A stretch of DNA of 64,000 nucleotides from an uncultured bacterium (GCA_964525605.1 CAZGKT010000012.1:7771-71770), one strand, 5' to 3'; positions 8,709 to 59,006 are shown, counted from the first letter of the stretch. Made by a program: numbers and translations. The notes: a model not told the origin generated them from the sequence alone.

Positions 8709-8716
8709 GATCATTC

Positions 8717-13012: not shown

Positions 13013-13029
13013 TTGCTTAAATTAATAAC

Positions 13030-13767: not shown

Positions 13768-13850
13768 CGGTTTCAGTAAAGCGTTTTAATGAGGCTATCA
13801 CCCACGCCAAGAAACTGTCAAGAAAGTATTGCTTTTCATTGAAGCGCCCG

Positions 13851-14891: not shown

Positions 14892-15116
14892 ATGAACTCC
14901 TCGCCTTTTTCAACGAACCTTTCAAGTCATTCGACAGGGCAATTATTCACCCGGGGAGATGCAAAATCAAAAAAGAAACCATCTTCTTTTACGAAGAAAG
15001 CTTCAACCGAATGCCCCCCCGAAAGGAAAGTGAGGGCGGAGGCTCGAAAGGAACCTAAAGCCCAAATAAACCAACCTTGCGATATTACTTTATATTTGGC
15101 GGATTAAAGCTAGAAT

Positions 15117-15132
15117 ACTAAAACCTTTTAGT
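15117..15132. promoter_or_regulatory. 16-bp palindrome ACTAAAACCTTTTAGT, candidate LacI-family operator
   Basis: Inverted repeat (7/8 per half) 56 nt upstream of the GH130 start, in the LacI/GH130 divergent intergenic region next to a TATATT -10-like element. Half-site ACTAAAAC recurs at ~17669 upstream of GH36. Confidence 0.3.
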
Positions 15133-15187
15133 TAATCTTAGAGTCGAAAGCCTTTTAAGGCCCGACCATCCAACCCGGAGGATTTCC

Positions 15188-16114: not shown

Positions 16115-16316
16115 AAAATTCGATTGATTTACCGCAGAGACGCGGAGAACAACGTTTCACCGACTTATGGGCCCCTCTCTAAAAATTGCCTTTTTGGTTT
16201 TGTCGGCTCCAATAAACAAGGTTTTCTTTGTGTCTTGATGCCTTGGGGTAACCCATTATTAGGTTTCCTTATTTCTTTCGATTTTCTCCGCGTCTCCGCG
16301 GTTAAATTTTCTTCGT

Positions 16317-17612: not shown

Positions 17613-17734
17613 GAATAACCTCCGTTGATGGCCGATTATATCAAAGGGATATTTATTACCAATAAAAGACTAAAACGATTTAATCTTTTCAGGTTATTCT
17701 ACGGTTCGATTACCTCTATCCTATCGGGATAACC

Positions 17735-23090: not shown

Positions 23091-23124
23091 ACCCTCTCCC
23101 CAGGCCGTTAAATGGATGTATTTG

Positions 23125-27276: not shown

Positions 27277-27480
27277 CGAATGGCTCCCGACGCAAGAGAG
27301 GCCAGTATAGGTGAGTGGTTATTGGCGAAAGAAGGGTAAATTGAAACACCCATTCATTTGATTTAAAAAGACCCGGCCTTTTTTATAATCTCCAGGTCCG
27401 GGTCTTGCAAAAACCCCCGCATCAATTCAAAGATTTAACTCCGTGTTTTCGGAGCGAATGTCTTTAAAGGAAATTACCGC

Positions 27481-29637
27481 TTGTCCCTCTCCATCTTCAG
27501 CTACAAGCCGCCCCACGACGGCACCTTAGCCCATATTGAAAACGGGGTCCTGAAGTTTTCCATCGAGGGCGAAAAGGATTCCCATCCCCGCTTTTCGGGT
27601 TTTAATTCCTTTTACCGCGCCATGAAGGTGGCCGGCGCCTTCGATGTCCGGCCCGACGTGATCGCCTGGGGCGGGGGGAGTTCCCCCCGGGACCCCATGG
27701 ATCTCTACGACGGCATCGCGCCCGAACTCATTCTGGCCGAAGACCTTCAATTATTCGGCAAGAAAACCCTCCTCTTTCGATCGAGCCACGAACGGGCCCA
27801 TATCTTTTCTTCCTATGGCCTTTCCCCCTTTCCCCAGGGCCAGCCCGTCTATGCCCTCGTCTGGGAAGGAGGGATCGGAGCCTTCTACGAGATCGACGAA
27901 AAGCTGAACATCCACCCCTTCGGGACGGTTTTAAGAAACCCCGGCCACCGCTACAGCATTCCCTACTCGGTTGCCAACCCCCAGAACGCCAAGTCCAAGG
28001 CCGACTGGTTTTTGCACGGCTATTACGCGGGTAAAACCATGGCGCTGGCCGCCTACGGCGAAATCATGGGCCGGGACCAAAGGAAGGATTGGTCGGCGGA
28101 AATCGACGCCTTCTTGAAAATGAAAATGGTCTTTGAAATGCCGGGAAACCGCCCGCAGGACCAAAAGGCCGCGGAATCCTACGTCGCCGAGCTGAAAAAA
28201 AGCCGGCTCTTCGACATCGGGGTCGAATCGGAAGACTTCAAGGATTTCACCTACGCCCTCAGCGCGAAAATTTACGGCCTCTTCCACCATTTCGCGAAAC
28301 AAAACCTGAAAAAGGGTTATCCCCTCCTTATCAGCGGCGGGTGCGGTTTGAACTGCGATTGGAACACCCAATGGAAGGAAAGCGGATTATTTTCGGACCT
28401 GTTCGTCCCGCCCTGCACCAACGACAGCGGCATCGCCATTGGCATGGCGGTGGACGCCCAGAGGCACGTCTCCGGAAACGCCAAACTCGACTGGTCCGTC
28501 TATTGCGGGGAGTCTTTCGTGGAAGACGCGGTCGATTTAACCGGCTTCCGGATTTCGCCCTTGAATTTGGACGAAGTGGCCGCCCTGCTGGAAAAGGGAA
28601 AGGTCCTGGCCTGGGTCGAGGGCCGTTACGAGATGGGCCCCCGAGCCCTCTGCCACCGTTCGCTCATTGCCGCGCCCTTCAAGAAGGAAATGACCGACCG
28701 CCTGAACAAGATCAAGAACCGGGAGCCCTTCCGGCCCATCGCGCCCATTTGCCTGGAGGAAGAGGTTTCCGAATACTTCGATTGGCGGGGCCCCAGCCCC
28801 TTCATGCTGTATTTTCAAAGGGTCCGATCGCCCCAACTCCAGGCCGTCACCCACGTCAACCGGACCGCGCGGGTCCAGACCGTCAACGACCGGACCAACC
28901 CCCGAATGGCGTCCCTTTTGCGGGTCTTCAAGAAGAAAACGGGGTTCGGGGTTTTGTGCAACACCAGCCTGAACTTCGCCGGCATGGGTTTCATCAACCG
29001 CCTGTCCGACCTGGTGCGCTACACCCTCAAGACAGGGTTGGACGGCTTCGTGGTGGAAGACCGGCTTTACTTGAAGCGGGCCTTCGACTACCGCCGCCCC
29101 GATTCGGCAGCTTCCCTCGCCCCTTCCCGCCCCTATCTTTCGCTTTCCGAGCCGGTCGTCACCTATCCCTTGACGAACAAGACCGAGACTGAAATCACGC
29201 CCCAAGCCATCCGCTTAAAATTCGAAACCCCTTCCGACATCTGCGTCTTGAGCTTTTCTTCCAACGTGGGCCCTTTCGCCGCCCCCGGCGTGGTGGATGT
29301 GAAGGGTTACGGCTTTTTCCAATTCCAGGCCCAGGCGCCGAAGGGGTTGAAGTTTTTCGTGACCATGACCGAATCCGGGGCCAACGCCCCCGATGCCGGG
29401 TCCTTTTCCGGCGTGAACGGGGCGGACGGGGAACGTTATTTCTTCCCGACCCAGCTGGGAACCGGGGATTGGGCCACCTACCGGTTGGACTTGGCTGCCC
29501 TGAACCTGTGGCGGTACTGGGGAAATCAAAAGGGAAATAATATCTTGGATCTACAGGGTTTGAGATCGATCGAGTTTTTCGTTCTGGGAAACCAGAAAGG
29601 CGAGATTCAGTTGAGGCATTTGGAGTTCACGGTTTAA
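27481..29637 (+). CDS. NodU/CmcH-family carbamoyltransferase with extra C-terminal beta-sandwich (CBM-like) domain
   Basis: TTG start. LSIFSYKPPHDGTLAHIENGVLKFSIEGEKD (ASKHA N-domain) and LLISGGCGLNCDWN...NDSGIAIGMA (GGxxLN block). Residues ~545-718 form an additional domain (...WATYRLDLAALNLWRYWG...IEFFVLG...). Confidence 0.75.
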   Translation: MSLSIFSYKPPHDGTLAHIENGVLKFSIEGEKDSHPRFSGFNSFYRAMKVAGAFDVRPDVIAWGGGSSPRDPMDLYDGIAPELILAEDLQLFGKKTLLFRSSHERAHIFSSYGLSPFPQGQPVYALVWEGGIGAFYEIDEKLNIHPFGTVLRNPGHRYSIPYSVANPQNAKSKADWFLHGYYAGKTMALAAYGEIMGRDQRKDWSAEIDAFLKMKMVFEMPGNRPQDQKAAESYVAELKKSRLFDIGVESEDFKDFTYALSAKIYGLFHHFAKQNLKKGYPLLISGGCGLNCDWNTQWKESGLFSDLFVPPCTNDSGIAIGMAVDAQRHVSGNAKLDWSVYCGESFVEDAVDLTGFRISPLNLDEVAALLEKGKVLAWVEGRYEMGPRALCHRSLIAAPFKKEMTDRLNKIKNREPFRPIAPICLEEEVSEYFDWRGPSPFMLYFQRVRSPQLQAVTHVNRTARVQTVNDRTNPRMASLLRVFKKKTGFGVLCNTSLNFAGMGFINRLSDLVRYTLKTGLDGFVVEDRLYLKRAFDYRRPDSAASLAPSRPYLSLSEPVVTYPLTNKTETEITPQAIRLKFETPSDICVLSFSSNVGPFAAPGVVDVKGYGFFQFQAQAPKGLKFFVTMTESGANAPDAGSFSGVNGADGERYFFPTQLGTGDWATYRLDLAALNLWRYWGNQKGNNILDLQGLRSIEFFVLGNQKGEIQLRHLEFTV

Positions 29638-29638
29638 T

Positions 29639-29659
29639 CCGGCGGTCTCTTCGCGCCGG
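29639..29659. terminator. Possible bidirectional terminator hairpin between convergent genes
   Basis: CCGGCG-gtctcttcg-CGCCGG, 6-bp GC stem between stop of carbamoyltransferase (29637) and stop of 29668..30171. No clean U-tract. Confidence 0.2.
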
Positions 29660-29667
29660 GTCCGGCC

Positions 29668-30171
29668 TTAATCCGGAAACCGGGAGAGAATATCCGTATC
29701 CAGGTTGTAGCCCATCCGGGCAAAGGGCGGAAAGACCACCCAGATAATCGTATGGTTGATATAGTTGAACTCGTTCCAATAATTAAAAACATATTTCACT
29801 TTCGGAATTTTCGGGATGAATTCCGGGGCCAGGTCCTGCAGTTTGTCCGGGAAGCGCTTGTATTTGACCCGGTATTGGTTGCAGGCGTCCGTGATTTGGC
29901 GCAGGTGGGCGTTCCCGACCTTATAGTTGAAGGACCGGGCGCCAAACACCGCGGCGATCATCAGCGCGAAGATTCCCGCCTTGAACAGGCGGGGTTTAAC
30001 CAATCGTTTATGACGAACCGAAGCGATCCCGGCCCCGATCAATAGAACGAGGATGCCTCCCAAACCCACCACCAGGGTCAGGATGCCCTGATCCAAGAAG
30101 AAGACGTCCAGGATAAAAATGAACCCGGCGGTCATCCAGGTCCTTCGGAGGCTTAAGGGTTTTTCGTCCAA
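29668..30171 (-). CDS. Hypothetical membrane protein
   Basis: Two strong hydrophobic spans (AGFIFILDVFFLDQGILTLVVGLGGILVLLIGAGIA; IFALMIAAVFGA). 167 aa. No recognised domain. Confidence 0.5.
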   Translation of the reverse strand: MDEKPLSLRRTWMTAGFIFILDVFFLDQGILTLVVGLGGILVLLIGAGIASVRHKRLVKPRLFKAGIFALMIAAVFGARSFNYKVGNAHLRQITDACNQYRVKYKRFPDKLQDLAPEFIPKIPKVKYVFNYWNEFNYINHTIIWVVFPPFARMGYNLDTDILSRFPD

Positions 30172-30956
30172 GTCATTCTCCCAGGGAGGCGGTTCGAGCA
30201 GGCCCCGCGTTCCCGCGATCCATCGTACATACTAATCCTAACCAGGTAAAACCCCCGGGTTTAATGATTTTCACCCCCGAGTAGCGGTTTCCTGAATTCC
30301 CTTTGGATATATGAAAATGATAAGGGAGGACGTCCATTATTCGGGTTCAAGCTCGAAGTGATGTTTGGATTGAAGGATGATCAGAGGAGCCAATTCGCGT
30401 AGGTGCTAAAGTTTCTGGGTAGCGGATCTCCCGTTTCGGGAGCCCCCCCACTCAGCAAGTGGATCCATCCCCACAACCATTGTTCCCCATGGCATCCGCA
30501 AGATCGCGATGATTGACAGCCGTCTCCCTGCCTTTGCGGTATCGCCACGTTCACGTCGGATCGGGGAGATGCGCTCCGGGGCCATGAGGGTGGCCGAACG
30601 GGTCACCTGCCAAAAGATGTTGGAGGCTTGGGCCCCGTTGATCAAGGTCACTCGGCCATGAGGGGTTTCGAAATACCTTCCAAAACGATAAAAAAACCAC
30701 CATCGACAAGTTTGTTTGGCAAAAAAAATCAAAATGATCCTTCGAACTCTCAATTTGATTTTAAGGAGTGTTTTGAAAAACAAGCCTCTACGAGTTTCGG
30801 TCAAGCGTCGGGAACCCCAGGCTCAGAAAAGACCCCATCCCTCCTTGGGACGGGTTTGATTTTTCACACGCCTGCTTCACGAAATTCTCCGCGACGTCGC
30901 GTCTTGGCATTGAATCCTTCCGTTAGGTTTTTCGTATCCCATCCATTCTTTTCCCC

Positions 30957-33900
30957 ATGAAACACGGCTTATTTCTTGCTCTCGTTCATAGGGTGAAACC
31001 TCCCCAGATCATCCGGAAACTCGCCAACCTTCGCCGCCACTTCCCCTTCCGCTTTCCCGCCTCCTTCCTCGTTTCCCGGCCCACGGAGGCTCCCATCCGC
31101 TCCGAGCTTTTCAGCACCGAACGGTTCGACCAGCACGCCCGCTCGCTGGCGGCGGCGCAAACCCTCACCGACGACCCCAAAGCCGGAGCCCAGCTCTTTC
31201 CCCGGCTCCGCGAAAACGAAAATATCCTCGGGGAGGCCTTCCGCTACCTCACCGGCGAGGTCCAGAAAAAGAAACCCATCAACCCCGCCGGCGAGTGGCT
31301 TTTGGATTCCTACTACGTGGTGGAGGAACAGCTCCGCGACATCAAGCGGTTTCTGCCCCACGACTTCTACAACGAGCTCCCGAAACTTTCCGATGGTTTC
31401 TTGAAGGGCTACCCCCGTGTCTACGGCCTGGCCTGGGCTTACGTGGCCCATACGGACAGCCGATTCGACCCCGAATCCCTCATTCATTTCGTGCGTTCTT
31501 ACCAGCAGGTGGAGCCCCTGACCATCGGGGAACTCTGGGCCCTGGCCATCACGCTTCGGGTCGTGATGGTCGACAACCTGCGCCGCATCGCCGTATACCT
31601 CGTCACCTCCCAGGAGGCGCGCCAGGACGCGGACGCCTTCGTGGACGAGCTGTTAGGGCTCATCGAGGAATCCTCGCTTTCCAGCCGCCCCACGGCCGCC
31701 AAACTCCAGCGCCAATCCGTCCATCCGGCCTACCTGGTCCAGCTCATCCAGCGCCTGCGCTACCAGGACCCCCGGGGAACGCCCGCGGTGGACTGGCTGA
31801 ACGAAAAACTTGCCTTCGAAAAAACCACCGCCGAGGAAATGGTCACCTCCGTCCACAGCCTCCAGGCCGCCAACAACTCCACGGTGCGAAACATCATCAC
31901 CAGCTTCCGCAACATGACGACCTTCGACTGGCAGGATTTTTTCGAGTCCGTCAGCCTGGTCCAGGAGATCCTTGCCCGGCACCCCCTTTATTCCCAAATG
32001 GATTTCAAGACCCGCAACTCCTACCGCACCGCCGTTGAGGAACTGGCCAAGGGATCGGGTAAAAGCGAATTAGAAATCGCGCAGCTAGCCCTCCAAAGGG
32101 CGGCCGAAGGCGCGGACCACCAGGGTTTTTCAGCCCGGATGGGCGATCCCGGCTATTCCCTCTTCGACGAGGGCCGCCGGGCCTTTGAGAAGAAAATCGG
32201 ATTCCAGGTCCCGTTGAAAAAACGTCTCCGCCGTTTTTGCACCGACTACCCGGCCCTCACCTACATCGGCAACATTCTCTTCATGGCCACGGTCATCCTC
32301 TGGATCGCGGCGCTGATGAACCCCCACCTGCCCCAGGCCGAAAGGTTTCTTCTCTTGTTTTTGGGCCTCTTCCCCGCCGGGGACCTGGCCGTCGGCTGGG
32401 TCAACCATTTCGTCACCGGCATGGTGCCGCCCCGCCATCTCGCGCGCCTGGAGTTCTTGGCGGGCCCCACCCCGGAGTTCCGGACCTTCGTGGTGGTTCC
32501 CACCCTGCTGGAAAAGGAATCGAACATTCCCGAACAGTTGGAAAAACTGGAAGTCCATTACCTTTCCAACGCCGACGGGGAAGTCTATTACGCCCTGCTG
32601 ACGGACTTTCCCGATTCTTCCGTGGAAATTTCGCCGGAGGATGAAAAAAAACTCAACCTCGCCGTCCAGCTAACCGCCGAGCTGAACCAACGCCACGGAC
32701 CCGCAGCCGGTGGAGCTTCCCGTTTTTTCCTCTGCCACCGCAAAAGGCTTTGGAACCCGCTGGAAGGAAAGTGGATGGGCTGGGAACGAAAGAGGGGGAA
32801 GCTTCACGAATTCAATAGGCTTTTGCGGGGAGCCCAGGATACGAGCTTCCTGCGTCCCGATGGCTCCGTTCTCACTGTCCCTTCCGGGGTCCGTTACGTC
32901 ATCACCCTGGATGCCGACACCAAGCTTTCCCCCGGCGTGGTCAACCACCTGGTGGGCATCCTGGCCCATCCGCTCAACCAGGCAAGGCTGGACCCCGTCC
33001 GCCAAAAGGTCGTGGAAGGCTACGGCATCCTCCAGCCCCGGGTCACGGCTTTCCTTCCAGCCCAGGACGAAAAATCCATCTTCCAAAAACTCTTTTCAGG
33101 CGATTGCTGCATCGACCCCTACGCCTCGGCCGTTTCGGATGTGTACCAGGACCTCTTCGGCGAGGGCAGTTTCACCGGCAAGGGCATCTACGACGTGGAC
33201 GCGGTGGAACAATCCCTGAAAGGGCGGATCAGCGAAAACCGCCTCCTGAGCCACGACCTCTTCGAGGGCTGTTTCGCCCGTTGTGGCTACGCCAGCGACC
33301 TGGAATTCTTCGAGGAATTCCCCTCCCACGCCGAAACCTCCACCCTGCGCAACCACCGCTGGATCAGGGGCGATTGGCAGCTCTTGCCCTGGATCTTCGG
33401 CCGGGAAGGCAACTCGCTCTCCACCCTTTCCCGTTGGAAAATGGCCGACAACCTGCGCCGAAGCCTCTCCCCCATCGGCACCGTCTGCCTTCTCATCGGG
33501 GCCTTCTGCCTGCCTCAGGTCTACCAGCCCGGCTGGGTAGGCTTGGCCTTGTTAGGGATAGCCCTTCCTTCTTATATACCCTTCTTCAAGGACCTGGTCC
33601 TGTGGCGCCGCCCCCTCCATTGGAGGGACCATTTGGGCGAAATTACACGGGATTTCGTCCTCGGGAGCGGTCAGTTCCTCGTCAATCTGGTTCTGGTGGC
33701 CCACCGTGCCTGGATGCACCTTGACGCCATCCTCCGCACCCTCTGGCGTCTGTTCGTTAGCCACCGCAACCTCCTTGAATGGGTCACCGCCGCCCAGGCC
33801 AACTCTAACTCTGCCCTTAGCCTCTCTCATTTCCTTCGAAGGATGAAGGGTTCGATCTTCATCGCGTGTTTCGCGGCGGCCTTAACGGCCCTGTTCAACC

Positions 33901-36900
33901 CGGCCTCCCTGCCCCTCTGCCTTCCTTTCGTCCTTCTCTGGCTTTGCGCGCCCTGGTTCGCCCAGGCCATCAGTACCCCCGAACCCAAGCGGGAAAGCCT
34001 ACCCTTGACCGCCGATGAAACCAGTGAACTGCGGCTCCATGCCCGGCGCGTCTGGGCTTTCTTCAGCCACTTCGCCGTGAAGGAGGATCATTTCCTCCCG
34101 CCCGATAATTTCCAGGAAGACCCCCTCCCCGTCGTGGCGCACCGGGGTTCCCCGACCAATTTCGGCCTCTACCTTCTCTCCGTCGTCACCGCCCATGATT
34201 TCGGCTGGATCGGCCTCACCGAAATGACCCGAAAACTGGAAGCGGCCCTGAAAAGCCTCAAAGACATGCAGCGATTCCGGGGCCATTTTTATAACTGGAT
34301 CGACACCCAAACCCTTCTGCCCCTGGAACCCCGTTACATCTCATCGGTGGACAGCGGAAACCTGGCCGGCCATCTCTTGACCCTTTCCCAATCCTGCAGG
34401 GATCTGGCCCACCAGCCGCTCTTTCCCGATTCCATCATTGAGGGAATCCAGGACACGGTGTCCCTCCTTAAAAAATCGGCGCAGGCCCTTCCCCTTCACG
34501 CTTTCTCCTCCGCCACCCCCTTGAGCCAGCTTCAAAAGGAAATCGCCAACTTCGACAGCCAGCTTATTCGGGAGGAACATTCCCGCACCCATTCCGAATG
34601 GGCCTCCTACTGGACCCAGCTTTCCCTCCAGGCCGAAACCCTCAAGGATGCCGCCCATGCCTTCTCCGCCGGCCAGCGCGGGGAGGAAATATTCGAAATG
34701 ACGGCTTGGGCAGACCGCGTCGCCGACGATGTCCAAAGCCATACCCAGGATTTCCAACACTTCTTCCCCTGGGCCCTGGGCCGTTCGGCCCTGGATCATT
34801 CAAACCTTCCTACACTAGAAGCCGATTCTCCGGTGATCCGCGAATTCCAATCATCGCTCGGTAAACTTCTCTCCTCCGGCATGACCCCCGCCGAAGTACC
34901 AGGCCTTTGCGAACAGGCACTCGCTTCCATTGAGGCGAAACGCCAGGTCCGCGACAGCCCTCCCCTTTCCGAGTCCGAGGAACTTTATTTCGACCAGGTG
35001 GGCGCGGCATTAACCCTCGCCGCCCAAAATGGCCGGGAGATTTTGCGAAGGTTGGAGGAGGTAGCTACCGATTCCCGGACGATCTTCAATGAGATGGATT
35101 TCAGCTTTTTGCTGAATCCCCAGAAGAAGCTTTTCTCCATCGGCTATCGGATTGCCGATAGCCGTTCGGCTGACGGCCATTCGACCGATGGACAGTTGGA
35201 AGAGGGCTGTTACGACCTTTTGGCCTCCGAAGCCCGCCTCACCAGCTATGTGGCCATCATCAAAAAAGACGTTCCCGTTTCCCATTGGTTCAGGTTGGGC
35301 CGGGGGCTGGTGGCGGATGAGGGCAAGGCGATGCTGATGAGCTGGGCCGGGTCTATGTTCGAGTACCTCATGCCTTCCCTCGTCATGACCACGCCCGGCG
35401 GAAGCCTTTTGGACCAGACCTGTCGGCGGGTGGTGGAACGGCAGATGGATTACGGGAATTTACGGGGTTCGCCCTGGGGCGTATCGGAAGCGGGATATAA
35501 CGCCCGGGACCTGGACCTGAATTACCAGTATTCCACCTTCGGTGTGCCCGGCCTGGGGTTGAAGCGGGGTTTGGCTAAGGACCTCGTCATCGCGCCCTAT
35601 GCCACGGCTCTCGCCGCCATGTTGGAACCCCGAAAGGCCCTTTTTAATTTCCAGAAATTGGAACAACTGGGCGCCCGGGGCTTGTACGGGTTTTACGAAT
35701 CGCTGGATTACACCCCGACGAGGCTTCGGGAAAACGAGAAATTCGCCCTAGTGAAGTCCTATATGGCCCACCACCAGGGCATGTCGCTCATTGCCTTTTC
35801 CAACGTGGTTAATTCCGGCCTCATGCGCCGCCGCTTCCACATGGACCCCTTGGTCCAGGCGGGCGAGCTTTTGTTGCAAGAAAAGACCCCCAGGAATCTG
35901 GGGGCGGCGCGCGACCAGAAGGAAGAGGTGGAAATCCAGGTCATCCAGGTGCCGATCCCCTCCATCCTTCGCGATATCCGCTCGCTCCACCACGCCGTCC
36001 CTAGTTCCCACCTGCTCTCCAACGGCCGTTACGCCGTCATGATCACGGCCGCCGGATCGGGCTATAGCCGCTGGAAAAACCGCGCCGTCACCCGCTGGCG
36101 GGAAGACGTCACCCGCGACCCCTACGGCAGTTTCCTTTACCTGAGGGATCTCAAGTCGGGTGGGGTCTGGTCGGCGGCCTACCAGCCGGTCTTGACCGAA
36201 CCCCTGCAGTACCACGTGCTGTTTTCGGAAGACCGGGCCAAGATCTCGCGCGTGGACCATGGGATCTCCACCGACCTGGAAATTCTCGTTTCGGCGGAAG
36301 ACGACGCCGAGCTCCGCCGCCTCACCCTCACCAACCCCGGGGGCGTCGAAAGGGAAATCGAGGTCACTTCTTATTCGGAAGTGGTGCTGACCGACCCCGC
36401 CGCCGATTTGGCCCATCCGGCCTTTTCCAACCTCTTCATTGAGACCCGTTTCATCCCGGGTCTCGCCGCCCTCACGGCCAGGCGGCGCCCCCGCTCTTCC
36501 GGCGAGGAACCGGTCTTCATGGCCCAGGTGCTTTCCGTGGGAAGCGAAACCTTCGGGGAAATCGAGTACGAAACCGACCGGGCGAAATTCATCGGCCGGG
36601 GCCGCACACCCCGCACCGCCTCCTCGGTCTTGGACGGCCTGCCCCTTTCCCTTTCCACCGGCGCGGTGCTGGACCCCATCCTGTCTTTAAGGGTCAAGGT
36701 GCGCTTAGCTCCCGGCACCTCCGCCCAGGTTTGTTTCACCACCCTGGTGACGGGCTCCGAAACCGAAATGCTTTCAATGGCCGAAAAATACCATAATTCC
36801 TCCGCCTTCGAGCGTTCCTCCGCCCTCGTCTGGACCCAATCCACCGCCAAGCTTCATCACTTGGGGATCGAACTGGAAGAAGCCCAGCTTTTCCAGAAAC

Positions 36901-39863
36901 TCGCAAACCGAATCCTTTTTTCCGACCCCCTCATGCGCCCCACGAGCGAGATCTTGAAAAAGAACCGCATGAACGTGACGGGCCTCTGGTCCCGCGGCAT
37001 CTCGGGCGACCTGCCCATTCTTTTGGTCCGGGTGGACGACCTGGAAGACCAGGCCCTGATCCGCCAGCTTTTGCGCGCCCACGAATACTGGCGCATGAAA
37101 CGGCTATCGATGGATATCGTGCTGCTGAACGAGAAGGGGCCTTCTTACGTGCAAGATTTACAGACAGCCCTGGAAGGCATGGTGCGGGGCAGTGAAGCGA
37201 CATCCCTCGGCAACCCCGACCTGCCTCCCGGGCGCATTTTCGTCTTGCGCGACGACCTGCTGGACGTGCGGGAAAAGAACCTTTTGCTGGCCGTAGCCCG
37301 GGCCATCCTCAACAGCCGCCAGGGCACCCTCGCCGAGCAGGTGATGCGGGTACGAAAATTCGACAGTTTCAAGTACGTTCCCGCGAAGAAAATGGAAGAG
37401 ACGGAAAAATTCCGCCTCGCGGAAAGGGTCGAGCCCCCGGTTTCGCTTTTTCCCCTGGACTTCTTCAACGGCATCGGCGGCTTCACCCCCGATGGGCGGG
37501 AATACGCCATCGTGCTGGAAAAGGGCCAACGCACCCCCGCCCCCTGGATCAACGTGATCTCCAATGGCGAATTCGGGTTTCAGGTTTCCGAATCGGGCGC
37601 GGGCTACACCTGGGCCTTGAACAGCCGGGAAAACCAGATTTCCCCCTGGTCCAACGACCCCGTGATAGACCCTCCCGGCGAGGCCTTTTATATCCAAGAC
37701 TCGGAGGATCTCTGGTCCCCCACCGCCTCCCCCATCAGGCTGGAAGATGCCACCTATACCGCCCGGCACGGAGCGGGTTACAGCGTTTTTGGCAACGAAT
37801 CCAACGGTATCCGAAGCACCCTCACCCAGTTCGTGGACGCCAAAGAACCGGTCAAGATTTCCCGGTTAGTCCTGCAAAACCGATCCCACCGCTCGAGGGA
37901 GCTTTCCATCACCGGTTACGTGGAATGGGTGCTCGGTTTTAACCGCACCCAAACCTCGCATTCTCTCGTGACCGAAATGGACGCCGAAACCGGCGCGCTT
38001 TTCGCCATGAACCCGCTCAACCCAGTTTACGGAAGCCGGGTTTCATTTTTCGACCTCAAGGGCACCCAGACCGCCTTCACCTCTGACCGGTCCGAATTTA
38101 TCGGAAGAAACGGAACACTGGAACGCCCCGCCGGGCTTTTGCGGAAGGAACCCTTAAGCGGCACCACCGGAGCCGGGTTTGATCCCTGCGGGGTTTTGCA
38201 GGCCCCCCTCACCCTGGCTCCGGGCGAGAAAAAGGAACTGGTGTTTCTTTTAGGGCAGGCCGAAAGCCAGGACCAGGCCCGCCGCTTGGTAAAAACCTTC
38301 AGGCAGAGGGGCGTGGAGGAGAGCCTACAGGCCGTTAACCAATTCTGGGATAACTTTTTGGGCAAGATCCAGGTGCAAACCCCCGACCCCGCGATGGACC
38401 TCATGCTCAACCGCTGGCTTCAAACCCAAACCCTGGCCTGCCGGTTTTGGGCCCGCTCGGCCTTTTACCAGGCCGGAGGCGCCTATGGCTTTAGGGACCA
38501 ACTTCAGGATGTGATGGCCATCGTGACGACCGACCCCACCCTGGCCCGGTCGCATATCCTGGTGGCCGCCGGCCGGCAGTTCCCCGAAGGCGATGTCCAG
38601 CATTGGTGGCACCCCTTGTCCGGGCGGGGGGTGAGGTCCCGCGTTTCGGATGACCGCCTCTGGCTTCCCTATGTGGTGCTCCATTACCTGAAGGTGACGG
38701 AGGATCAGGCCCTGCTGGAAGAACTGGTTCCCTTCCTTCAAGCCCCGCTTCTTCGCCCCGACCAGGAAGATTCCTATTTCGAACCCACGGTTTCCCGCGA
38801 ACCTGCCCTGGACCTTTACGAACATTGCGCGAGAGCGGTCGATATCAGCCTTCAAACCGGTGTCCACGGCCTGCCCCTGATGGGAAGTGGGGATTGGAAT
38901 GACGGCATGAACCGAGTCGGCCATGAGGGAAAGGGTGAAAGTGTTTGGCTGGCCTGGTTTCTCCATGAAATCCTGACAGAAATGGCCCCAGTCGCCCAGT
39001 CGAAGGGCGATGAAAAGCGGGCGAAAACTTGGGCCGAACACGCTGACAAGCTCAAACAGGCCCTGGAAACGAACGCCTGGGACGGGACCTGGTACCGCCG
39101 GGCCTTTTTCGACGACGGTTCCCCCCTGGGGTCCAGGGAAAACACCGAATGCCAGATCGATTCCATCGCCCAGAGCTGGGCGGTATTATCCGGCGCCGCG
39201 GACCCGGCCCGAGCGCTCCAGGCCATGAAATCCGTGGAAGAGCGCCTCATCCTCAAGGACGATGACCTGGTTTTGATCTTCACCCCGCCCTTCGACCAAA
39301 CACCGAAAGACCCCGGCTATATCAAGGGTTATCTGCCCGGCGTGAGAGAAAATGGGGGCCAATACACCCACGCCGCCGTCTGGTGTCTCTTGGCCTACGC
39401 GAAGATGGGAATGGGCAAGCAGGCCTTCGAGTTGTTTTCGATGTTGAACCCTATCAACCACGCCCTGACCCGAACCCATGTGGCGACCTACAAAACCGAA
39501 CCCTATGTGATGGTGGCGGATATTTACGGCAAAGCCCCCCACGTGGGCCGGGGCGGCTGGACCTGGTACACCGGTTCGGCCGGGTGGATGTATAGGGCCG
39601 GAGTCGAATTTATCTTGGGAATACAGCAGAGAGGCAAAAAACTACATTTCGATCCATGCATACCGAAGGAATGGTCTGGATTTAAGGTTACTTATCAGAA
39701 TCTAAGTAGTGTTTATGACATTCAATTCGAAAACCCTAATCATGTTTCCAAAGGGGTTCAACGTATTGAATGTGATGGAGTTGTTGTTCAGACGAAGGAT
39801 GCGGCGATCGACTTGAAGGATGATCGGAAGACCCATTTCGTGAAAGTTATTTTAGGCCCGTAA
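30957..39863 (+). CDS. ndvB: Cyclic beta-1,2-glucan synthase (GT84 glycosyltransferase + GH94 phosphorylase-like domain), 2968 aa
   Basis: Multi-TM N-region. GT84 core with YVITLDADTKL (DxD). NHRWIRGDWQLLPWI. C-terminal GH94 blocks GFRDQLQD, WTWYTGSAGWMYRAG. Overall size and order as NdvB/ChvB/Cgs. Last ~85 codons (from ~39605) are visibly AT-richer than the rest. Confidence 0.9.
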   Translation: MKHGLFLALVHRVKPPQIIRKLANLRRHFPFRFPASFLVSRPTEAPIRSELFSTERFDQHARSLAAAQTLTDDPKAGAQLFPRLRENENILGEAFRYLTGEVQKKKPINPAGEWLLDSYYVVEEQLRDIKRFLPHDFYNELPKLSDGFLKGYPRVYGLAWAYVAHTDSRFDPESLIHFVRSYQQVEPLTIGELWALAITLRVVMVDNLRRIAVYLVTSQEARQDADAFVDELLGLIEESSLSSRPTAAKLQRQSVHPAYLVQLIQRLRYQDPRGTPAVDWLNEKLAFEKTTAEEMVTSVHSLQAANNSTVRNIITSFRNMTTFDWQDFFESVSLVQEILARHPLYSQMDFKTRNSYRTAVEELAKGSGKSELEIAQLALQRAAEGADHQGFSARMGDPGYSLFDEGRRAFEKKIGFQVPLKKRLRRFCTDYPALTYIGNILFMATVILWIAALMNPHLPQAERFLLLFLGLFPAGDLAVGWVNHFVTGMVPPRHLARLEFLAGPTPEFRTFVVVPTLLEKESNIPEQLEKLEVHYLSNADGEVYYALLTDFPDSSVEISPEDEKKLNLAVQLTAELNQRHGPAAGGASRFFLCHRKRLWNPLEGKWMGWERKRGKLHEFNRLLRGAQDTSFLRPDGSVLTVPSGVRYVITLDADTKLSPGVVNHLVGILAHPLNQARLDPVRQKVVEGYGILQPRVTAFLPAQDEKSIFQKLFSGDCCIDPYASAVSDVYQDLFGEGSFTGKGIYDVDAVEQSLKGRISENRLLSHDLFEGCFARCGYASDLEFFEEFPSHAETSTLRNHRWIRGDWQLLPWIFGREGNSLSTLSRWKMADNLRRSLSPIGTVCLLIGAFCLPQVYQPGWVGLALLGIALPSYIPFFKDLVLWRRPLHWRDHLGEITRDFVLGSGQFLVNLVLVAHRAWMHLDAILRTLWRLFVSHRNLLEWVTAAQANSNSALSLSHFLRRMKGSIFIACFAAALTALFNPASLPLCLPFVLLWLCAPWFAQAISTPEPKRESLPLTADETSELRLHARRVWAFFSHFAVKEDHFLPPDNFQEDPLPVVAHRGSPTNFGLYLLSVVTAHDFGWIGLTEMTRKLEAALKSLKDMQRFRGHFYNWIDTQTLLPLEPRYISSVDSGNLAGHLLTLSQSCRDLAHQPLFPDSIIEGIQDTVSLLKKSAQALPLHAFSSATPLSQLQKEIANFDSQLIREEHSRTHSEWASYWTQLSLQAETLKDAAHAFSAGQRGEEIFEMTAWADRVADDVQSHTQDFQHFFPWALGRSALDHSNLPTLEADSPVIREFQSSLGKLLSSGMTPAEVPGLCEQALASIEAKRQVRDSPPLSESEELYFDQVGAALTLAAQNGREILRRLEEVATDSRTIFNEMDFSFLLNPQKKLFSIGYRIADSRSADGHSTDGQLEEGCYDLLASEARLTSYVAIIKKDVPVSHWFRLGRGLVADEGKAMLMSWAGSMFEYLMPSLVMTTPGGSLLDQTCRRVVERQMDYGNLRGSPWGVSEAGYNARDLDLNYQYSTFGVPGLGLKRGLAKDLVIAPYATALAAMLEPRKALFNFQKLEQLGARGLYGFYESLDYTPTRLRENEKFALVKSYMAHHQGMSLIAFSNVVNSGLMRRRFHMDPLVQAGELLLQEKTPRNLGAARDQKEEVEIQVIQVPIPSILRDIRSLHHAVPSSHLLSNGRYAVMITAAGSGYSRWKNRAVTRWREDVTRDPYGSFLYLRDLKSGGVWSAAYQPVLTEPLQYHVLFSEDRAKISRVDHGISTDLEILVSAEDDAELRRLTLTNPGGVEREIEVTSYSEVVLTDPAADLAHPAFSNLFIETRFIPGLAALTARRRPRSSGEEPVFMAQVLSVGSETFGEIEYETDRAKFIGRGRTPRTASSVLDGLPLSLSTGAVLDPILSLRVKVRLAPGTSAQVCFTTLVTGSETEMLSMAEKYHNSSAFERSSALVWTQSTAKLHHLGIELEEAQLFQKLANRILFSDPLMRPTSEILKKNRMNVTGLWSRGISGDLPILLVRVDDLEDQALIRQLLRAHEYWRMKRLSMDIVLLNEKGPSYVQDLQTALEGMVRGSEATSLGNPDLPPGRIFVLRDDLLDVREKNLLLAVARAILNSRQGTLAEQVMRVRKFDSFKYVPAKKMEETEKFRLAERVEPPVSLFPLDFFNGIGGFTPDGREYAIVLEKGQRTPAPWINVISNGEFGFQVSESGAGYTWALNSRENQISPWSNDPVIDPPGEAFYIQDSEDLWSPTASPIRLEDATYTARHGAGYSVFGNESNGIRSTLTQFVDAKEPVKISRLVLQNRSHRSRELSITGYVEWVLGFNRTQTSHSLVTEMDAETGALFAMNPLNPVYGSRVSFFDLKGTQTAFTSDRSEFIGRNGTLERPAGLLRKEPLSGTTGAGFDPCGVLQAPLTLAPGEKKELVFLLGQAESQDQARRLVKTFRQRGVEESLQAVNQFWDNFLGKIQVQTPDPAMDLMLNRWLQTQTLACRFWARSAFYQAGGAYGFRDQLQDVMAIVTTDPTLARSHILVAAGRQFPEGDVQHWWHPLSGRGVRSRVSDDRLWLPYVVLHYLKVTEDQALLEELVPFLQAPLLRPDQEDSYFEPTVSREPALDLYEHCARAVDISLQTGVHGLPLMGSGDWNDGMNRVGHEGKGESVWLAWFLHEILTEMAPVAQSKGDEKRAKTWAEHADKLKQALETNAWDGTWYRRAFFDDGSPLGSRENTECQIDSIAQSWAVLSGAADPARALQAMKSVEERLILKDDDLVLIFTPPFDQTPKDPGYIKGYLPGVRENGGQYTHAAVWCLLAYAKMGMGKQAFELFSMLNPINHALTRTHVATYKTEPYVMVADIYGKAPHVGRGGWTWYTGSAGWMYRAGVEFILGIQQRGKKLHFDPCIPKEWSGFKVTYQNLSSVYDIQFENPNHVSKGVQRIECDGVVVQTKDAAIDLKDDRKTHFVKVILGP

Positions 39864-39890
39864 AACCAATGTTTTACAAAGTGGATCGAA
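39790..39890. repeat. ~100-bp segment (cgs 3' end + 25 nt downstream) duplicated at ~60985..61085
   Basis: ...acgaaggatgcggcgatcgacttgaaggatgatcggaagacccatttcgtgaaagttattttaggcccgtaa...tttacaaagtggat vs ...atgaaggatgcgacgattgaattgaagaatgaccagaagaccaaattcttgaaagtcatcttaggcttataa...ttcacaaagtggat (~75% identity). Confidence 0.7.
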
Positions 39891-40084
39891 TCAGCCAAAA
39901 TTCTAAAATTAACCCCGAATCGCTAGCGAAGATCCCTGAAAAACATATCCAACGGCCATGGACTCTCCATCAAAAACGGGGTTATCTTTGGAACATCGGC
40001 CCCAAAAACCTGACTGCAAGCTAGCTATCCACGGCGCATAGCCCAGTTCAAATATACACAAACCAAGCTTATACTCATCCCGGC

Positions 40085-40678
40085 ATGACCGGGACTGGCA
40101 TAAGGAGCCGTGGTTTGTTCACTAAATACAAAGCCATTCAAAAACCCTGGATGGATGAAAAAGAAATTGCTCTCATTCGGAAGTACCTGCAACCCGGGCA
40201 CATCATGTTGGAATGGGGAAGCGGGGGAAGCACCTTCTATTTCTCCCAATTCGTCCAAAAATATTACAGTATCGAATCCGATCAAAAATGGGGAAAAATC
40301 ATCAGGCGCCGGGTTTTGTGGAGTGAGTTTTGGGTGAAAGTCCTCCGGGGACGGAAAGAACCCAAGATTATCTATCACCCGGTCAAGATGCCTGTCCGGC
40401 CCAGGACGATTCCCACCAGATATGAAGACTATCGGGATTTTATTGAGCGGGTCGATCACTTGGGGGTGAAACGGTTCGATGTGGTTTTAATCGACGGGCG
40501 GGGACGGGACCATTGCGCGAAAAAAATTCTCGACTACATCGATGAAAAATCCGTCGTTTTTATCCACGATTACTTCATGCCGGGCCGGGAATATTATTCG
40601 GAGGTTCTGCAGTGGTATGACATCTTGGAAGCCGTTACGGATACTCCCCAGACTTTGGTGGCCTTGCGCAAAAAATAA
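40085..40678 (+). CDS. Small Rossmann-fold SAM-dependent methyltransferase-like protein
   Basis: HIMLEWGSGGSTFYF (motif I-like E-x-G-x-G-G-S-T), acidic SIESD (motif II-like), VVLIDGRG. Sits in the lower-GC stretch directly after cgs. Alternative start at 40151. Confidence 0.5.
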   Translation: MTGTGIRSRGLFTKYKAIQKPWMDEKEIALIRKYLQPGHIMLEWGSGGSTFYFSQFVQKYYSIESDQKWGKIIRRRVLWSEFWVKVLRGRKEPKIIYHPVKMPVRPRTIPTRYEDYRDFIERVDHLGVKRFDVVLIDGRGRDHCAKKILDYIDEKSVVFIHDYFMPGREYYSEVLQWYDILEAVTDTPQTLVALRKK

Positions 40679-40786: not shown

Positions 40787-41716
40787 ATGAAAAAGCTCTC
40801 CTGGCTCATCCTGGTTGTCGTTGCGGCCGTTCCCTGCGCCTTATACGCCCAAACCGAACCAACTCCATCTTCTTCGGACTTGGCTCTCCCCGCCATGCCC
40901 CATCCCATCACACCCGTGCCCGAGATCGGCCGAATCTGGGCCCCTAGCCCGCCCCCTCAAGCAGAGGGCTTTGGTTTGGGTGCCCCCATTACGGAAAAAG
41001 GGTTGGAGGTCCCTAGCCCAACCCCACAGGTGGAGGTACCGGTTTTGTCCACGACATCCCCGAGCACTGTTTCATCAGCCCCGGACGTTTCCCCCACGGT
41101 CGCACCCACATTCGCGGGCGTGGTCCTGGCGATGGGAAAAACCACTCCCCGCCCGAAGGTGGAATTGGACACCACCCTGGGGGGCTTGGAGGGTTTTAAC
41201 GGTGAAAAAGGTCTGGGGTGGGGTGGCTCCATTGCCTGTTACGATCCGGTGTCACCCGACTTAGGGCTAGGGGGTTCCCTGGGCTTCTACGTCATGAACT
41301 CCCAGGTCGTTTCAGACAACACCTATACCACAGTTCCGCCCAGTGCCCCCTCGACCTCCCCGGGCCAGGAGGTCTTGGCCCAGACCAACACCCGATTCCA
41401 GATTTTGGGTTCGGCGAAAGTCACGATGAGCGGTTCGAACCTGCGGCCCTATCTATTGGCGGGGTTGGGGGTTGCCTTTATTTCCGATACAGGAAATGTC
41501 AGTGAGATCGTCTCGGGCAATACCGTCGCGTACCACACCCTCGCCGACAACACTCAAACCTGCGCGGTAGGCGAGGCCGGGGTGGGTTTGAAGATCCCTC
41601 TCGTTCAGGCGCTCGATCTAGCCTTGGAGGGAAAAGTCGACTTGCTCTATGACCCGAAGGGCGGAACGACTACCACCTATCTCCCCTTCCAGGCCGGGCT
41701 GGATTTCGGTTTATAA
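40787..41716 (+). CDS. Outer-membrane beta-barrel protein with Pro/Ser/Thr-rich N-terminal region
   Basis: Signal peptide MKKLSWLILVVVAAVPCALYA. Alternating amphipathic strands in C-terminal 180 aa ending ...LPFQAGLDFGL. Confidence 0.65.
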   Translation: MKKLSWLILVVVAAVPCALYAQTEPTPSSSDLALPAMPHPITPVPEIGRIWAPSPPPQAEGFGLGAPITEKGLEVPSPTPQVEVPVLSTTSPSTVSSAPDVSPTVAPTFAGVVLAMGKTTPRPKVELDTTLGGLEGFNGEKGLGWGGSIACYDPVSPDLGLGGSLGFYVMNSQVVSDNTYTTVPPSAPSTSPGQEVLAQTNTRFQILGSAKVTMSGSNLRPYLLAGLGVAFISDTGNVSEIVSGNTVAYHTLADNTQTCAVGEAGVGLKIPLVQALDLALEGKVDLLYDPKGGTTTTYLPFQAGLDFGL

Positions 41717-41984
41717 GGGAGTAGGGTTGATACCCGATGACCAACAGGTTCGACTAAATCGAACATAGGTCGATGTCAGCCAGTTTTATCGTTGAACTTG
41801 GGCAGATTTCCCCTTGAAAAATGAATTTATATAACCGCATGGGTAAACCTGTCGTAGTGTCCGGGGAACCGAGGCATGACCTGGAGCCCGGCCTCTTTTT
41901 GAAACCAGTGGTATTATTACAGTAATTCCCAATTACGCCGTTAGGTGAATGGGTTCGATCCTATATATGACTGGAGAATATGAC

Positions 41985-58650: not shown

Positions 58651-59006
58651 TATATAGGATTTGTTGAGGATTATTCAAAAAGCAAGGTACATGCCAAACC
58701 CAAAACACCTTAAATCCTTTAATGGAGGTAAAAGCCAATCCGCAATCGATCAAATGGAGAAGGAGGGTCTAAATCCGGAATTAGTTGATGTAACCCTATT
58801 TTTTGTCGGTTCAACGATAAATGGGGTCAATGGATGGGGAGTGGGGTGAATAATTTCTTTTCAAATTTGACCCTGCTTGCGCGGTCCTATTTCACAAGTT
58901 TATTTCCCTTAAACGACGCCGGGTTCGATGGGGAGAGTGCATGGTTCGGAATTTCTTTTCCACCTGGGTCAAAGCAACCGGCCTCGAGAGTCTGGTTTTT
59001 CGCCCC

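What the first reader, a model, noticed from the sequence alone, without database searches (positions are those of the whole stretch)
27481..40678. Cyclic beta-1,2-glucan synthase neighbourhood with a carbamoyltransferase(+CBM-like tail) and methyltransferase-like gene: candidate decorated cyclic glucan
Established: NdvB/ChvB/Cgs-type enzymes (GT84 + GH94) make periplasmic cyclic beta-1,2-glucans in alpha-proteobacteria. Known decorations (succinyl, phosphoglycerol, methylmalonyl) are added by separate enzymes.

Seen here:
- A 2968-aa cgs homolog with intact GT84 DxD and GH94 blocks.
- A NodU/CmcH-type O-carbamoyltransferase carrying an extra ~170-aa C-terminal beta-sandwich (nt ~29113-29637).
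- Directly after cgs, a small SAM-methyltransferase-like gene.
- An OMP and a serpin follow.

Inference: the glucan, or the product of the four-module GT, may be O-carbamoylated and/or methylated, in the way Nod factors are. The 785-bp noncoding leader in front of cgs (30172-30956) suggests substantial 5' regulation.
Basis: inference. Interest (0 to 1): 0.55.

Follow-up and report, generated by a model that had tools for sequence, protein, structure and literature searches.

The report
Cyclic-glucan synthase beside unrelated glycan-decorating genes
The genes are all really there, but the carbamoyl-adding enzyme belongs with a neighbouring four-part sugar-linking enzyme rather than with the cyclic-glucan synthase, so a "decorated cyclic glucan" is at best a weak possibility, and only for methylation.

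Summary
These are a full-length Cgs (2968 aa), a TobZ/NodU-family O-carbamoyltransferase (CT) with an extra C-terminal beta-sandwich, a small methyltransferase-fold gene and a serpin. The "OMP" is unverified.

The functional link mostly fails.
- **CT and cgs.** In related peat-bog genomes (L097/L098, L009/L010) the CT keeps its divergent partner, a 1380-aa multi-glycosyltransferase. No cgs lies within 10 kb downstream. An opposite-strand gene separates CT from cgs.
- **cgs neighbours.** Among 80 cgs loci from many phyla, none has a CT or MT-like homolog in its flanks, and no neighbour family recurs in more than 6 loci.
- **MT-like gene.** Its family sits in glycosyltransferase and sugar-nucleotide operons (27 of 121 immediate neighbours are GT2). 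It is next to cgs only here. Methylation of the glucan is therefore possible but unconserved.
- **785-bp "leader".** It is a divergent intergenic region at a synteny breakpoint, with no Rfam hit and no structure signal.

The region is a patchwork of ordinary family members plus one rare fusion.

The parts
21126..23168 (-). 680-aa ORF downstream of the multi-GT. It has no family hit. The N-terminal ~260 aa are conserved in relatives.
   Evidence: It is 77% identical over 262 aa to L009 and syntenic in L097.
23125..27276 (-). 1383-aa soluble multi-module glycosyltransferase. It has an unassigned N-terminal module, a GT32-like DXD module and two GT4 modules. It is the conserved divergent partner of the CT.
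   Evidence: Pfam on the whole protein and on segments. NCBIfam gives GT4 hits, all below their cut-offs. No TM segment. It is 77% identical to the L009/L010 homolog next to the CT and also present in L097/L098.
27277..27480 (.). 204-bp divergent intergenic region between the multi-GT and the CT. It contains a sigma-70-like site at 27362-27389 (+).
   Evidence: The site is a consensus match only.
27481..29085 (+). Catalytic part of the O-carbamoyltransferase (Kae1-like plus YrdC-like domains, TobZ/NodU/CmcH family).
29086..29637 (+). C-terminal CBM11/CIA30-like beta-sandwich fused to the CT.
29668..30171 (-). 167-aa two-TM protein on the opposite strand, convergent with the CT. It is the last gene syntenic with relatives.
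   Evidence: It matches the 167-aa ORF of L097 (70% nt, ~59% aa).
30172..30956 (.). 785-bp ORF-poor divergent intergenic region. It is a synteny breakpoint and there is no evidence of a structured RNA.
30957..39863 (+). [quoted passage not shown] Approximate sub-regions: GT84 nt 32454-33446, GH189-type cyclization domain nt 34104-35936, GH94 nt 37536-39620.
   Evidence: TM-like segments at aa 432-482, 837-855 and 965-1002.
40085..40678 (+). Small cytoplasmic class I methyltransferase-fold protein of an uncharacterised, glycosyltransferase-associated family. Some cluster members start at M23, nt 40151.
40787..41716 (+). 309-aa exported protein with a signal peptide, a Pro/Ser/Thr-rich linker and a Gly-rich C-terminal half. 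An OMP identity is plausible but unverified.
41949..43304 (+). Serpin with a hydrophobic, lipoprotein-like N-terminus.

Best explanation
The 13-kb stretch is a juxtaposition of independent envelope and glycan genes, not a dedicated 'decorated cyclic glucan' cluster.

**Unit A (23125-29637).** This is a conserved divergent pair: a soluble four-module glycosyltransferase and a cytoplasmic O-carbamoyltransferase. By family mechanism (inferred), the CT makes carbamoyl-adenylate from carbamoyl phosphate and ATP in its YrdC-like domain and transfers the carbamoyl group to a substrate hydroxyl in its Kae1-like domain. Its acceptor is most likely the oligosaccharide or glycoconjugate built by the adjacent multi-GT. 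The fused CBM11/CIA30-like module would act as a ligand-binding or tethering domain (inferred).

**Unit B.** cgs is a complete, stand-alone Cgs that makes cyclic beta-1,2-glucan, as it does in many phyla. It landed next to unit A in this lineage only. The 785-bp gap is the junction and holds two divergent promoter regions.

**The MT-like gene.** The small gene after cgs belongs to a family that travels with glycosyltransferases and sugar-nucleotide genes. It is probably a sugar O-methyltransferase (fold and motif shown; activity inferred). Its target here is undetermined.
For: 1. Synteny. L097/L098 (~80% nt identity) and L009/L010 (67-77% aa identity) keep GH36, HlyIII, the ORF628/680 homolog, the multi-GT and the divergent CT. 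L097 also keeps the TM167 homolog. Neither has cgs, the MT-like gene, P309 or the serpin within 10 kb downstream. Similarity to the window stops at nt ~30180.
2. The CT and cgs are separated by a conserved gene on the opposite strand, so they cannot form one operon.
3. Eighty cgs loci from different species, with flanks of up to 10 kb, have no homolog of the CT, MT-like gene, P309, serpin or TM167 at E <= 1e-5. No flanking family recurs in more than 6 loci.
4. The Cgs is intact.
5. MT-like family. Motifs EWGSGGST, SIE, DGRxRxxC and HD are conserved. The fold is class I methyltransferase at pLDDT 92.7. Its neighbours in other loci are GT4, GT2, GT9/LPS-core and polysaccharide genes. Of 121 immediate neighbours, 27 are GT2, and others are GT90/25/8/92, GDP-mannose dehydratase, epimerases and UDP-glucose dehydrogenase. 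None of 78 independent loci has cgs.
6. The tail module is fused to many unrelated catalytic domains.
7. No ChvA/NdvA-type exporter or known glucan-modifying gene was found in the window.
Against: - The MT-like family characteristically sits right next to a glycosyltransferase. Here the only adjacent GT on its strand is Cgs, 221 nt upstream, with no terminator-like site between them. A functional MT-Cgs pair therefore cannot be excluded.
- NodU-family CTs and MT-like genes share a single operon in 4 of 78 metagenomic loci, so the two decorating activities do co-occur in glycan pathways elsewhere.
- One CT-with-tail homolog (L011, 69% identity) is not next to a multi-GT.
- Only 10 kb downstream of the CT could be inspected in relatives, so cgs may lie further away.
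- No expression or chemical data exist.
Confidence: 0.6

Rival explanations
1. The MT-like protein O-methylates the cyclic beta-1,2-glucan, or its nascent chain, in the cytoplasm before export. cgs and the MT-like gene would then form a two-gene unit making a methylated cyclic glucan. The CT is not involved.
For: - The two genes share a strand and are 221 nt apart, with no terminator-like site on the + strand between them.
- The family is consistently embedded beside glycosyltransferases.
- The protein has no signal peptide or TM segment. The cryo-EM paper read describes the Cgs domains, and I infer from general knowledge that they act on the cytoplasmic side.
- The cgs-MT-P309-serpin order recurs on several short peat contigs, but all come from the same population (100% identical MT).
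Against: - None of 80 cgs loci carries the family, and none of 78 independent family loci carries cgs.
- The closest homologs (63-64% identity) sit after a GT4 next to GH36 or inside an LPS-core cluster.
- Promoter-like sites lie in the gap.
- The library search for glucan substituents returned papers on succinyl and phosphoglycerol groups, not methyl.
Confidence: 0.2
2. The CT and the MT-like protein both decorate the product of the four-module GT. cgs was inserted between members of an older glycan-decoration neighbourhood.
For: - CT-family and MT-like genes lie in a single operon in L129, L131, L151 and L159. L131 was annotated and also holds epimerases, DegT, GDP-mannose dehydratase and a GT2.
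- CT-multi-GT pairing is conserved.
- The closest MT-like homolog lies next to a GH36 that is 58% identical to the window's GH36.
Against: - Relatives with the multi-GT and CT have no MT-like gene within the 22 kb inspected.
- The GT4 beside the MT-like gene in L012 and L015 shows only generic GT4 similarity to the multi-GT.
- The CTs in those four operons are only 29-37% identical to this one.
Confidence: 0.1
3. One reading: the cyclic glucan is both O-carbamoylated (the CT being guided by its CBM-like tail to beta-glucan) and O-methylated, and the 785-bp leader imposes riboregulation.
For: - The CT, cgs and the MT-like gene lie within 13 kb.
- The tail's best structural match, CtCBM11, is known to me as a beta-glucan-binding module.
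Against: - An opposite-strand gene lies between the CT and cgs.
- The CT-multi-GT pair is conserved without cgs.
- None of 80 cgs loci has a CT.
- The tail module is fused mostly to non-carbohydrate enzymes, such as nucleotide cyclases.
- About 520-aa CT relatives lie in small-molecule clusters.
- The gap has no Rfam match and no structure signal.
Confidence: 0.04

Closest known systems
Agrobacterium tumefaciens ChvB/Cgs (PDB 8RF0, 8RF9) and Brucella Cgs
   Same: The match runs the full length at 2371 bits. GT84 residues (D, DxD, catalytic D, RW), the cyclization-domain AHHQGM motif, the GH94 GDWND motif and TM segments in comparable positions are all present.
   Different: Identity to any of the 80 genome homologs listed (the best kept from 600+ matches) is only 38-57%. 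The source is an uncultured peat-bog bacterium, not a host-associated alpha-proteobacterium. No chvA/ndvA-type exporter gene lies nearby.
TobZ / NodU / CmcH / NovN / VtdB O-carbamoyltransferases, and putative WapO (Pseudomonas LPS-core heptose carbamoyltransferase, PMC8005017)
   Different: It belongs to a distinct ~520-aa subfamily whose N-terminal ~90 aa fall outside the Pfam N-domain match. It carries an extra CBM11/CIA30-like C-terminal module. It scores far below the NodU equivalog cut-off, 246 versus 1000 bits. Its substrate is unknown.
CtCBM11 of Clostridium thermocellum Lic26A-Cel5E (PDB 1V0A) and CIA30 domains
   Different: Sequence identity is 14%. The module is intracellular and fused to a biosynthetic transferase, and elsewhere to nucleotide cyclases and beta-lactamase-family proteins. 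Sugar binding was not tested.
Known cyclic-glucan decorating enzymes: Cgm/OpgC-type succinyltransferase and CgmB/OpgB-type phosphoglycerol transferase (from general knowledge; substituents as in PMC7569799, listed)
   Same: The concept matches: separate enzymes add substituents to a Cgs product.
   Different: From general knowledge, those enzymes are membrane proteins acting at or beyond the inner membrane and add anionic groups. The CT and the MT-like protein here are soluble and cytoplasmic. They would add neutral groups that the library searches did not link to these glucans.
Class I SAM methyltransferases of the Methyltransf_24 / COMT-like type (best structural match 3CVO, 'methyltransferase-like protein SPO2022')
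   Same: It has the Rossmann-like class I methyltransferase fold, a glycine-rich motif I (EWGSGGS) and an acidic residue at the end of beta-2.
   Different: TM-scores are only about 0.6, with 10-20% identity. Pfam scores below its cut-off and NCBIfam has no model. No member has been characterised, so SAM binding and the acceptor are unknown.

Membership tests
[quoted passage not shown] | GT84 domain with UDP-coordinating D and DxD, a catalytic-base D and an RW motif, flanked by TM helices | tested here: met
   The equivalents of D527, D624/D626, D739 and R773-W774 are conserved in the 8rf0 alignment. DAD is at aa 652 and HRW at aa 800. TM-like segments lie at aa 432-482, 837-855 and 965-1002.
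[quoted passage not shown] | Cyclization (GH189) domain with catalytic glutamates and the conserved His-His pair | tested here: inconclusive
   The match to TiCGS-Cy 8wy1 has E 4.6e-124. The AHHQGM motif is at aa 1604, and candidate FEYLMP and SEAGYN glutamates are present. I did not map E1356/E1442 residue by residue.
[quoted passage not shown] | C-terminal GH94 phosphorylase domain with its catalytic Asp | tested here: met
   Pfam GH94 supersandwich (E 1.7e-162) and catalytic domain (E 2.5e-124) match over their full length. GDWND is at aa 2645. Cellobiose phosphorylase structures hit at E 1e-104.
[quoted passage not shown] | The product is a cyclic beta-1,2-glucan | not testable with these tools
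   This needs biochemistry.
NodU/CmcH/TobZ O-carbamoyltransferase | Kae1-like N-domain with a His/His/Asp metal site, plus a YrdC-like C-domain | tested here: met
NodU proper (Nod-factor 6-O-carbamoyltransferase) | Scores above the NCBIfam equivalog cut-off | tested here: not met
   246 bits against a cut-off of 1000. No nod genes lie nearby.
CBM11 carbohydrate-binding module | Beta-jelly-roll fold homologous to CtCBM11 | tested here: met
CBM11 carbohydrate-binding module | Binds beta-glucan through conserved cleft aromatic residues | not tested
   No residue-level superposition was available. Fusion partners elsewhere are mostly non-carbohydrate enzymes, which argues against assuming glucan binding.
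Class I SAM-dependent methyltransferase | Rossmann-like seven-strand fold with glycine-rich motif I and an acidic beta-2 residue | tested here: met
   AF2 pLDDT 92.7. All 50 Foldseek hits listed, of 384 at E <= 0.001, are methyltransferases or methyltransferase-fold proteins. E43, G45, G47 and E64 are invariant.
Class I SAM-dependent methyltransferase | Pfam/NCBIfam family membership above the curated threshold | tested here: not met
   Methyltransf_24 scores 21.6 bits against a cut-off of 26.3. There is no NCBIfam hit. Some homologs do pass PF13578.
Dedicated cyclic-glucan decoration locus (cgs plus modifying enzymes as a conserved unit) | Recurrent genomic linkage of cgs with the modifying genes across lineages | tested here: not met
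   None of 80 cgs loci has a CT or MT-like gene. None of 78 MT-like loci has cgs. Relatives carrying this CT lack cgs within 10 kb.
Cis-regulatory RNA leader upstream of cgs | Match to a known RNA family, or a thermodynamic signal above shuffled controls | tested here: not met
   Rfam found nothing at gathering score or at E <= 1. Folding z-scores are -1.38 and +0.43. Covariation could not be tested because no divergent homologs of the gap are available.

The most novel reading that the evidence does not exclude
The small methyltransferase-fold protein after cgs founds an uncharacterised, widespread, glycosyltransferase-associated sugar O-methyltransferase family. In this lineage it methylates cyclic beta-1,2-glucan in the cytoplasm. 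The product would be a neutral O-methylated cyclic glucan, a substituent that my library searches did not find reported for these glucans.
Probability: 0.15. Interest if true: 0.6.

Novelty: new variant of a known kind. Interest (0 to 1): 0.3.

Why it matters
If the decorated-glucan idea were right, it would add neutral substituents (carbamoyl, methyl) to the known chemistry of cyclic beta-1,2-glucans. It would also point to cytoplasmic tailoring before export.

The evidence instead shows that gene adjacency around cgs carries little functional information. Its neighbours differ in nearly every lineage examined.

Two things are still worth keeping:
- A rare fusion of an O-carbamoyltransferase to a CBM11/CIA30-like module. 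It is the only carbamoyltransferase among the 68 long tail-bearing representatives scanned, out of 158 hits in a library of 1.84 billion. It is paired with a four-module glycosyltransferase and is a candidate system for carbamoylating a cytoplasmic glycan.
- An uncharacterised methyltransferase-fold family that reliably marks glycan-biosynthesis operons in soil, freshwater and marine metagenomes.

Tried and rejected
1. **Remnant of a duplicated cgs 3' end.** A 35-nt direct repeat (30370-30404 versus 39813-39847, 80% identical) was considered. The seed is about chance level, and blastx of the gap against Cgs finds nothing better than E 0.35. Rejected.
2. **Structured RNA or riboswitch in the gap.** There are no Rfam hits and no folding signal.
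3. **Unusual gap length.** A crude ORF-free-gap survey of 58 cgs loci gives a median of ~215 nt. Twelve gaps are >= 500 nt and three are >= 785 nt. This gap is long but not unique, and the measure is rough.
4. **Mobile-element boundaries around the cgs block.** No convincing flanking repeats were found.
5. **Specific relationship between the GT4 next to the MT-like gene (L012, L015) and the multi-GT.** Only generic GT4 motifs are shared.
6. **A 'split' CT plus stand-alone tail (P0265, L186).** The upstream 453-aa ORF is not a CT, and that contig looks frameshift-prone.
7. **Taxon of the source.** Cluster look-ups carry no organism names. The best Cgs homologs are only 57% identical and taxonomically scattered. 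The phylum stays undetermined. Related contigs carry TonB/ExbBD, TonB-dependent receptors and LPS-core genes, which suggests a diderm.
8. **Literature.** No paper in the library links carbamoyl groups to periplasmic or cyclic glucans. The 11 co-occurrences are incidental.
Full report
**Observation.**
- The 718-aa product of 27481-29637 carries both carbamoyltransferase Pfam domains. It matches solved O-carbamoyltransferases.
- The metal-site histidines and aspartate (H12, H103, H107, D315) and the GPRAL..RS motif are invariant across 29 homologs.
- An AGGAA about 9 nt upstream supports the TTG start.
- The 2968-aa product of 30957-39863 aligns end to end with the cryo-EM-solved A. tumefaciens Cgs (2371 bits).
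- The GT84 residues that the structural paper names as UDP-coordinating or catalytic (D527, D624, D626, D739, R773) are all conserved in the printed alignment.
- The cyclization domain matches TiCGS-Cy (E 4.6e-124) and keeps the His-His motif that paper highlights.
- The GH94 domains match over their full length and the GDWND motif is present.
- The serpin is unambiguous.
- The 309-aa 'OMP' has a signal-peptide-like N-terminus but no family match, so its typing is unverified.

**The tail of the carbamoyltransferase.**
- Relatives at about 50% identity are ~520 aa long and end where the catalytic domains end. Among the 120 best hits listed, only five proteins (58-98% identity) carry the extra ~180 residues at the C-terminus.
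- The tail is modelled as all-beta.
- Sequence evidence is weak but convergent. The tail profile hits 1v0a at E 0.017. Pfam CBM_11 and CIA30 each match 3 of 5 tails weakly. Transitive homologs are annotated PF03425/PF08547.
- An exhaustive profile search of 1.84 billion representatives found 158 proteins with this module.
- I scanned 68 long ones. Only one is a carbamoyltransferase, and it is the representative of this protein's own cluster.
- Eleven of the 68 are adenylate/guanylate cyclases, five are beta-lactamase-family proteins, and a few are glycosidases.
- The module is therefore a promiscuous C-terminal ligand-binding or tethering domain. Its presence does not point to beta-glucan.

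**Who the carbamoyltransferase travels with.**
- In L097/L098 (about 80% nucleotide identity) and L009/L010 (67-77% amino-acid identity), the gene order GH36, HlyIII, 628-aa ORF, 1368-1380-aa multi-glycosyltransferase and divergent CT is preserved.
- No cgs, MT-like gene, 309-aa ORF or serpin lies in the following 10 kb.
- In L097, similarity to the window continues through the small two-TM gene on the opposite strand (window 29668-30171) and ends there. That point is exactly where the 785-bp gap begins.
- The multi-GT has a GT32-like DXD module, two GT4 modules and an unassigned N-terminal module. It has no TM segment.
- A third homolog (L011, 69%) stands apart from any multi-GT.
- Relatives of ~520 aa sit in small-molecule-type clusters. 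In Ralstonia the cluster has a second CT, an ATP-grasp enzyme, an MFS transporter and a thioesterase. On a Salmonella contig with plasmid-like genes (ParA-type ATPase, ParE/Phd) it has a ThyA-like enzyme, an NTPase, an amidohydrolase and an MFS transporter.
- The broader subfamily is therefore not glycan-specific.
- The best-supported acceptor for this CT is the product of its conserved divergent neighbour, not the Cgs product. The intervening convergent gene also rules out a CT-cgs operon.

**What cgs travels with.**
- A scan of one genome per species returned more than 600 relatives. The 80 best span MAGs labelled Chloroflexota, Acidobacteriota, Nitrospirota, Gemmatimonadota, Elusimicrobiota, Planctomycetota, Verrucomicrobiota, Bacteroidota, Spirochaetes and Proteobacteria, at 38-57% identity.
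- With up to 10 kb of flank each, none contains a homolog of the CT, MT-like gene, 309-aa ORF, serpin or TM167 at E <= 1e-5.
- Clustering 1525 flanking ORFs shows no family present in more than 6 loci.
- cgs is therefore typically a stand-alone gene with a fluid neighbourhood, and adjacency to it is weak evidence of function.
- The window holds no ChvA/NdvA-type exporter.

**The methyltransferase-like gene.**
- Pfam support is sub-threshold, but 161 homologs share invariant EWGSGGST, SIE, DGRxRxxC, HD and Y motifs.
- The model (pLDDT 92.7) is a class I methyltransferase fold. Its best match is the uncharacterised 'methyltransferase-like' 3CVO, followed by COMT and tRNA methyltransferases, at TM about 0.6.
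- The D137 ... H161-D162 arrangement resembles the metal triad of cation-dependent O-methyltransferases. That is my inference from memory and I did not test it.
- Context is informative. The closest homologs follow a GT4 next to a GH36 (63% identity). Others lie between two heptosyltransferases in an LpxB-KdtA-LpxK LPS-core cluster (64%). Others sit in polysaccharide clusters.
- In 78 independent metagenomic loci, 27 of 121 immediate neighbours are GT2. Others are GT90/25/8/92, GDP-mannose dehydratase, epimerases, UDP-glucose dehydrogenase and further methyltransferases.
- None of these loci has cgs.
- Four of them have a NodU-family CT in the same tightly packed operon. Carbamoylation and this putative methylation therefore do co-occur in glycan pathways elsewhere.
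- In the window the gene sits 221 nt after cgs on the same strand, with no terminator-like site between, though there are promoter-like matches.
- This keeps 'methylated cyclic glucan' alive at roughly 15-20%. The pairing is unique to this population: the eight short contigs that repeat it carry a 100% identical protein.

**The 785-bp gap.**
- It lies between the start of a minus-strand gene and the start of cgs, so it must hold two promoters.
- It has no plausible ORF and no Rfam match even at E <= 1.
- Folding energies are indistinguishable from shuffles (z -1.38 and +0.43).
- It has no similarity to relatives and no meaningful repeats.
- A crude survey puts it in the upper tail of upstream gaps among cgs loci: 3 of 58 are as long.
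- The simplest reading is junction DNA at a rearrangement point. Regulation is neither shown nor excluded.

**Verdict.**
- The region is a patchwork: an ordinary new member of the Cgs family, a rare CT-CBM11/CIA30 fusion paired with a multi-GT, and a member of an uncharacterised GT-associated methyltransferase-fold family.
- The library holds no report of carbamoylated periplasmic or cyclic glucans. A glycan carbamoyltransferase precedent does exist in the putative WapO of the Pseudomonas LPS core.
- Interest is modest at 0.3.

Noticed in passing
window 2365-19924: A mannan/galactomannan utilisation-type block. It holds two GH5 'cellulase' family proteins, a 1431-aa protein with mannanase galactose-binding domains, a SASA esterase with a CIA30 domain, a LacI regulator, a sugar SBP, a GH130 beta-1,4-mannooligosaccharide phosphorylase (15188-16114, +) and a GH36 alpha-galactosidase.
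   Followed up: no
L101/L102 (Salmonella enterica contigs with plasmid-like genes: ParA-type ATPase, ParE/Phd) and PMC8670742: A ~520-aa relative of this CT (50% identity, annotated 'proline dehydrogenase') sits in an operon with a thymidylate-synthase-like enzyme, an NTPase, an amidohydrolase and an MFS transporter. A paper in the library reports carbamoyltransferases involved in cytosine modification of DNA and RNA. The subfamily may include nucleobase- or nucleoside-modifying enzymes.
   Followed up: no
proteins P0295-P0436: The CBM11/CIA30-like tail module recurs at the C-terminus of adenylate/guanylate cyclases (11 of 68 scanned) and beta-lactamase-family proteins (5 of 68). This suggests a sensor or ligand-binding role for an uncharacterised subfamily of this fold.
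   Followed up: partly
window 21126-23168 (-): The 680-aa ORF after the multi-GT has no family hit. Only its N-terminal ~260 aa are conserved in relatives. By eye the N-terminal part looks L,D-transpeptidase-like and the C-terminal part Cys-peptidase-like ('NLDCGIFALANAA ... SHWIAV'). Neither was tested.
   Followed up: no
window 30001-38000: GC skew is strongly negative across most of cgs (-0.11 to -0.145). It is near zero in the 22-30 kb flank upstream. The compositional oddity fits the synteny break but I did not analyse it further.
   Followed up: no
window 41949-43304 and 44656-47949: A bacterial serpin with a lipoprotein-like N-terminus, followed on the opposite strand by a 1097-aa NB-ARC/STAND NTPase with TPR repeats.
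   Followed up: no
window 52762-53910 (+) and 62782-63822 (-): Two class III nucleotide cyclases, one of them with a PAS domain. PilZ-domain proteins also occur in the window (1676-2269) and next to CT homologs in L009 and L011.
   Followed up: no
window 59007-60065 (-) versus 58941-60020 (+): Two long overlapping ORFs lie on opposite strands. The minus-strand one is a Kelch-repeat protein (E 2.7e-29) and the plus-strand one has no family hit, so it is probably spurious.
   Followed up: partly
L097 12283-12921; L009 12195-12830: Relatives carry a bPH_2-domain gene between the CT and the TM167 homolog that is missing from the window. This is a second small indel at the same junction.
   Followed up: no
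L022 18848-20281 and 3 other cgs loci: A secreted ~477-aa protein recurs next to cgs in 4 of 80 loci. By eye it could be a beta-1,2-glucanase-like enzyme, but it was not scanned against any family library.
   Followed up: no
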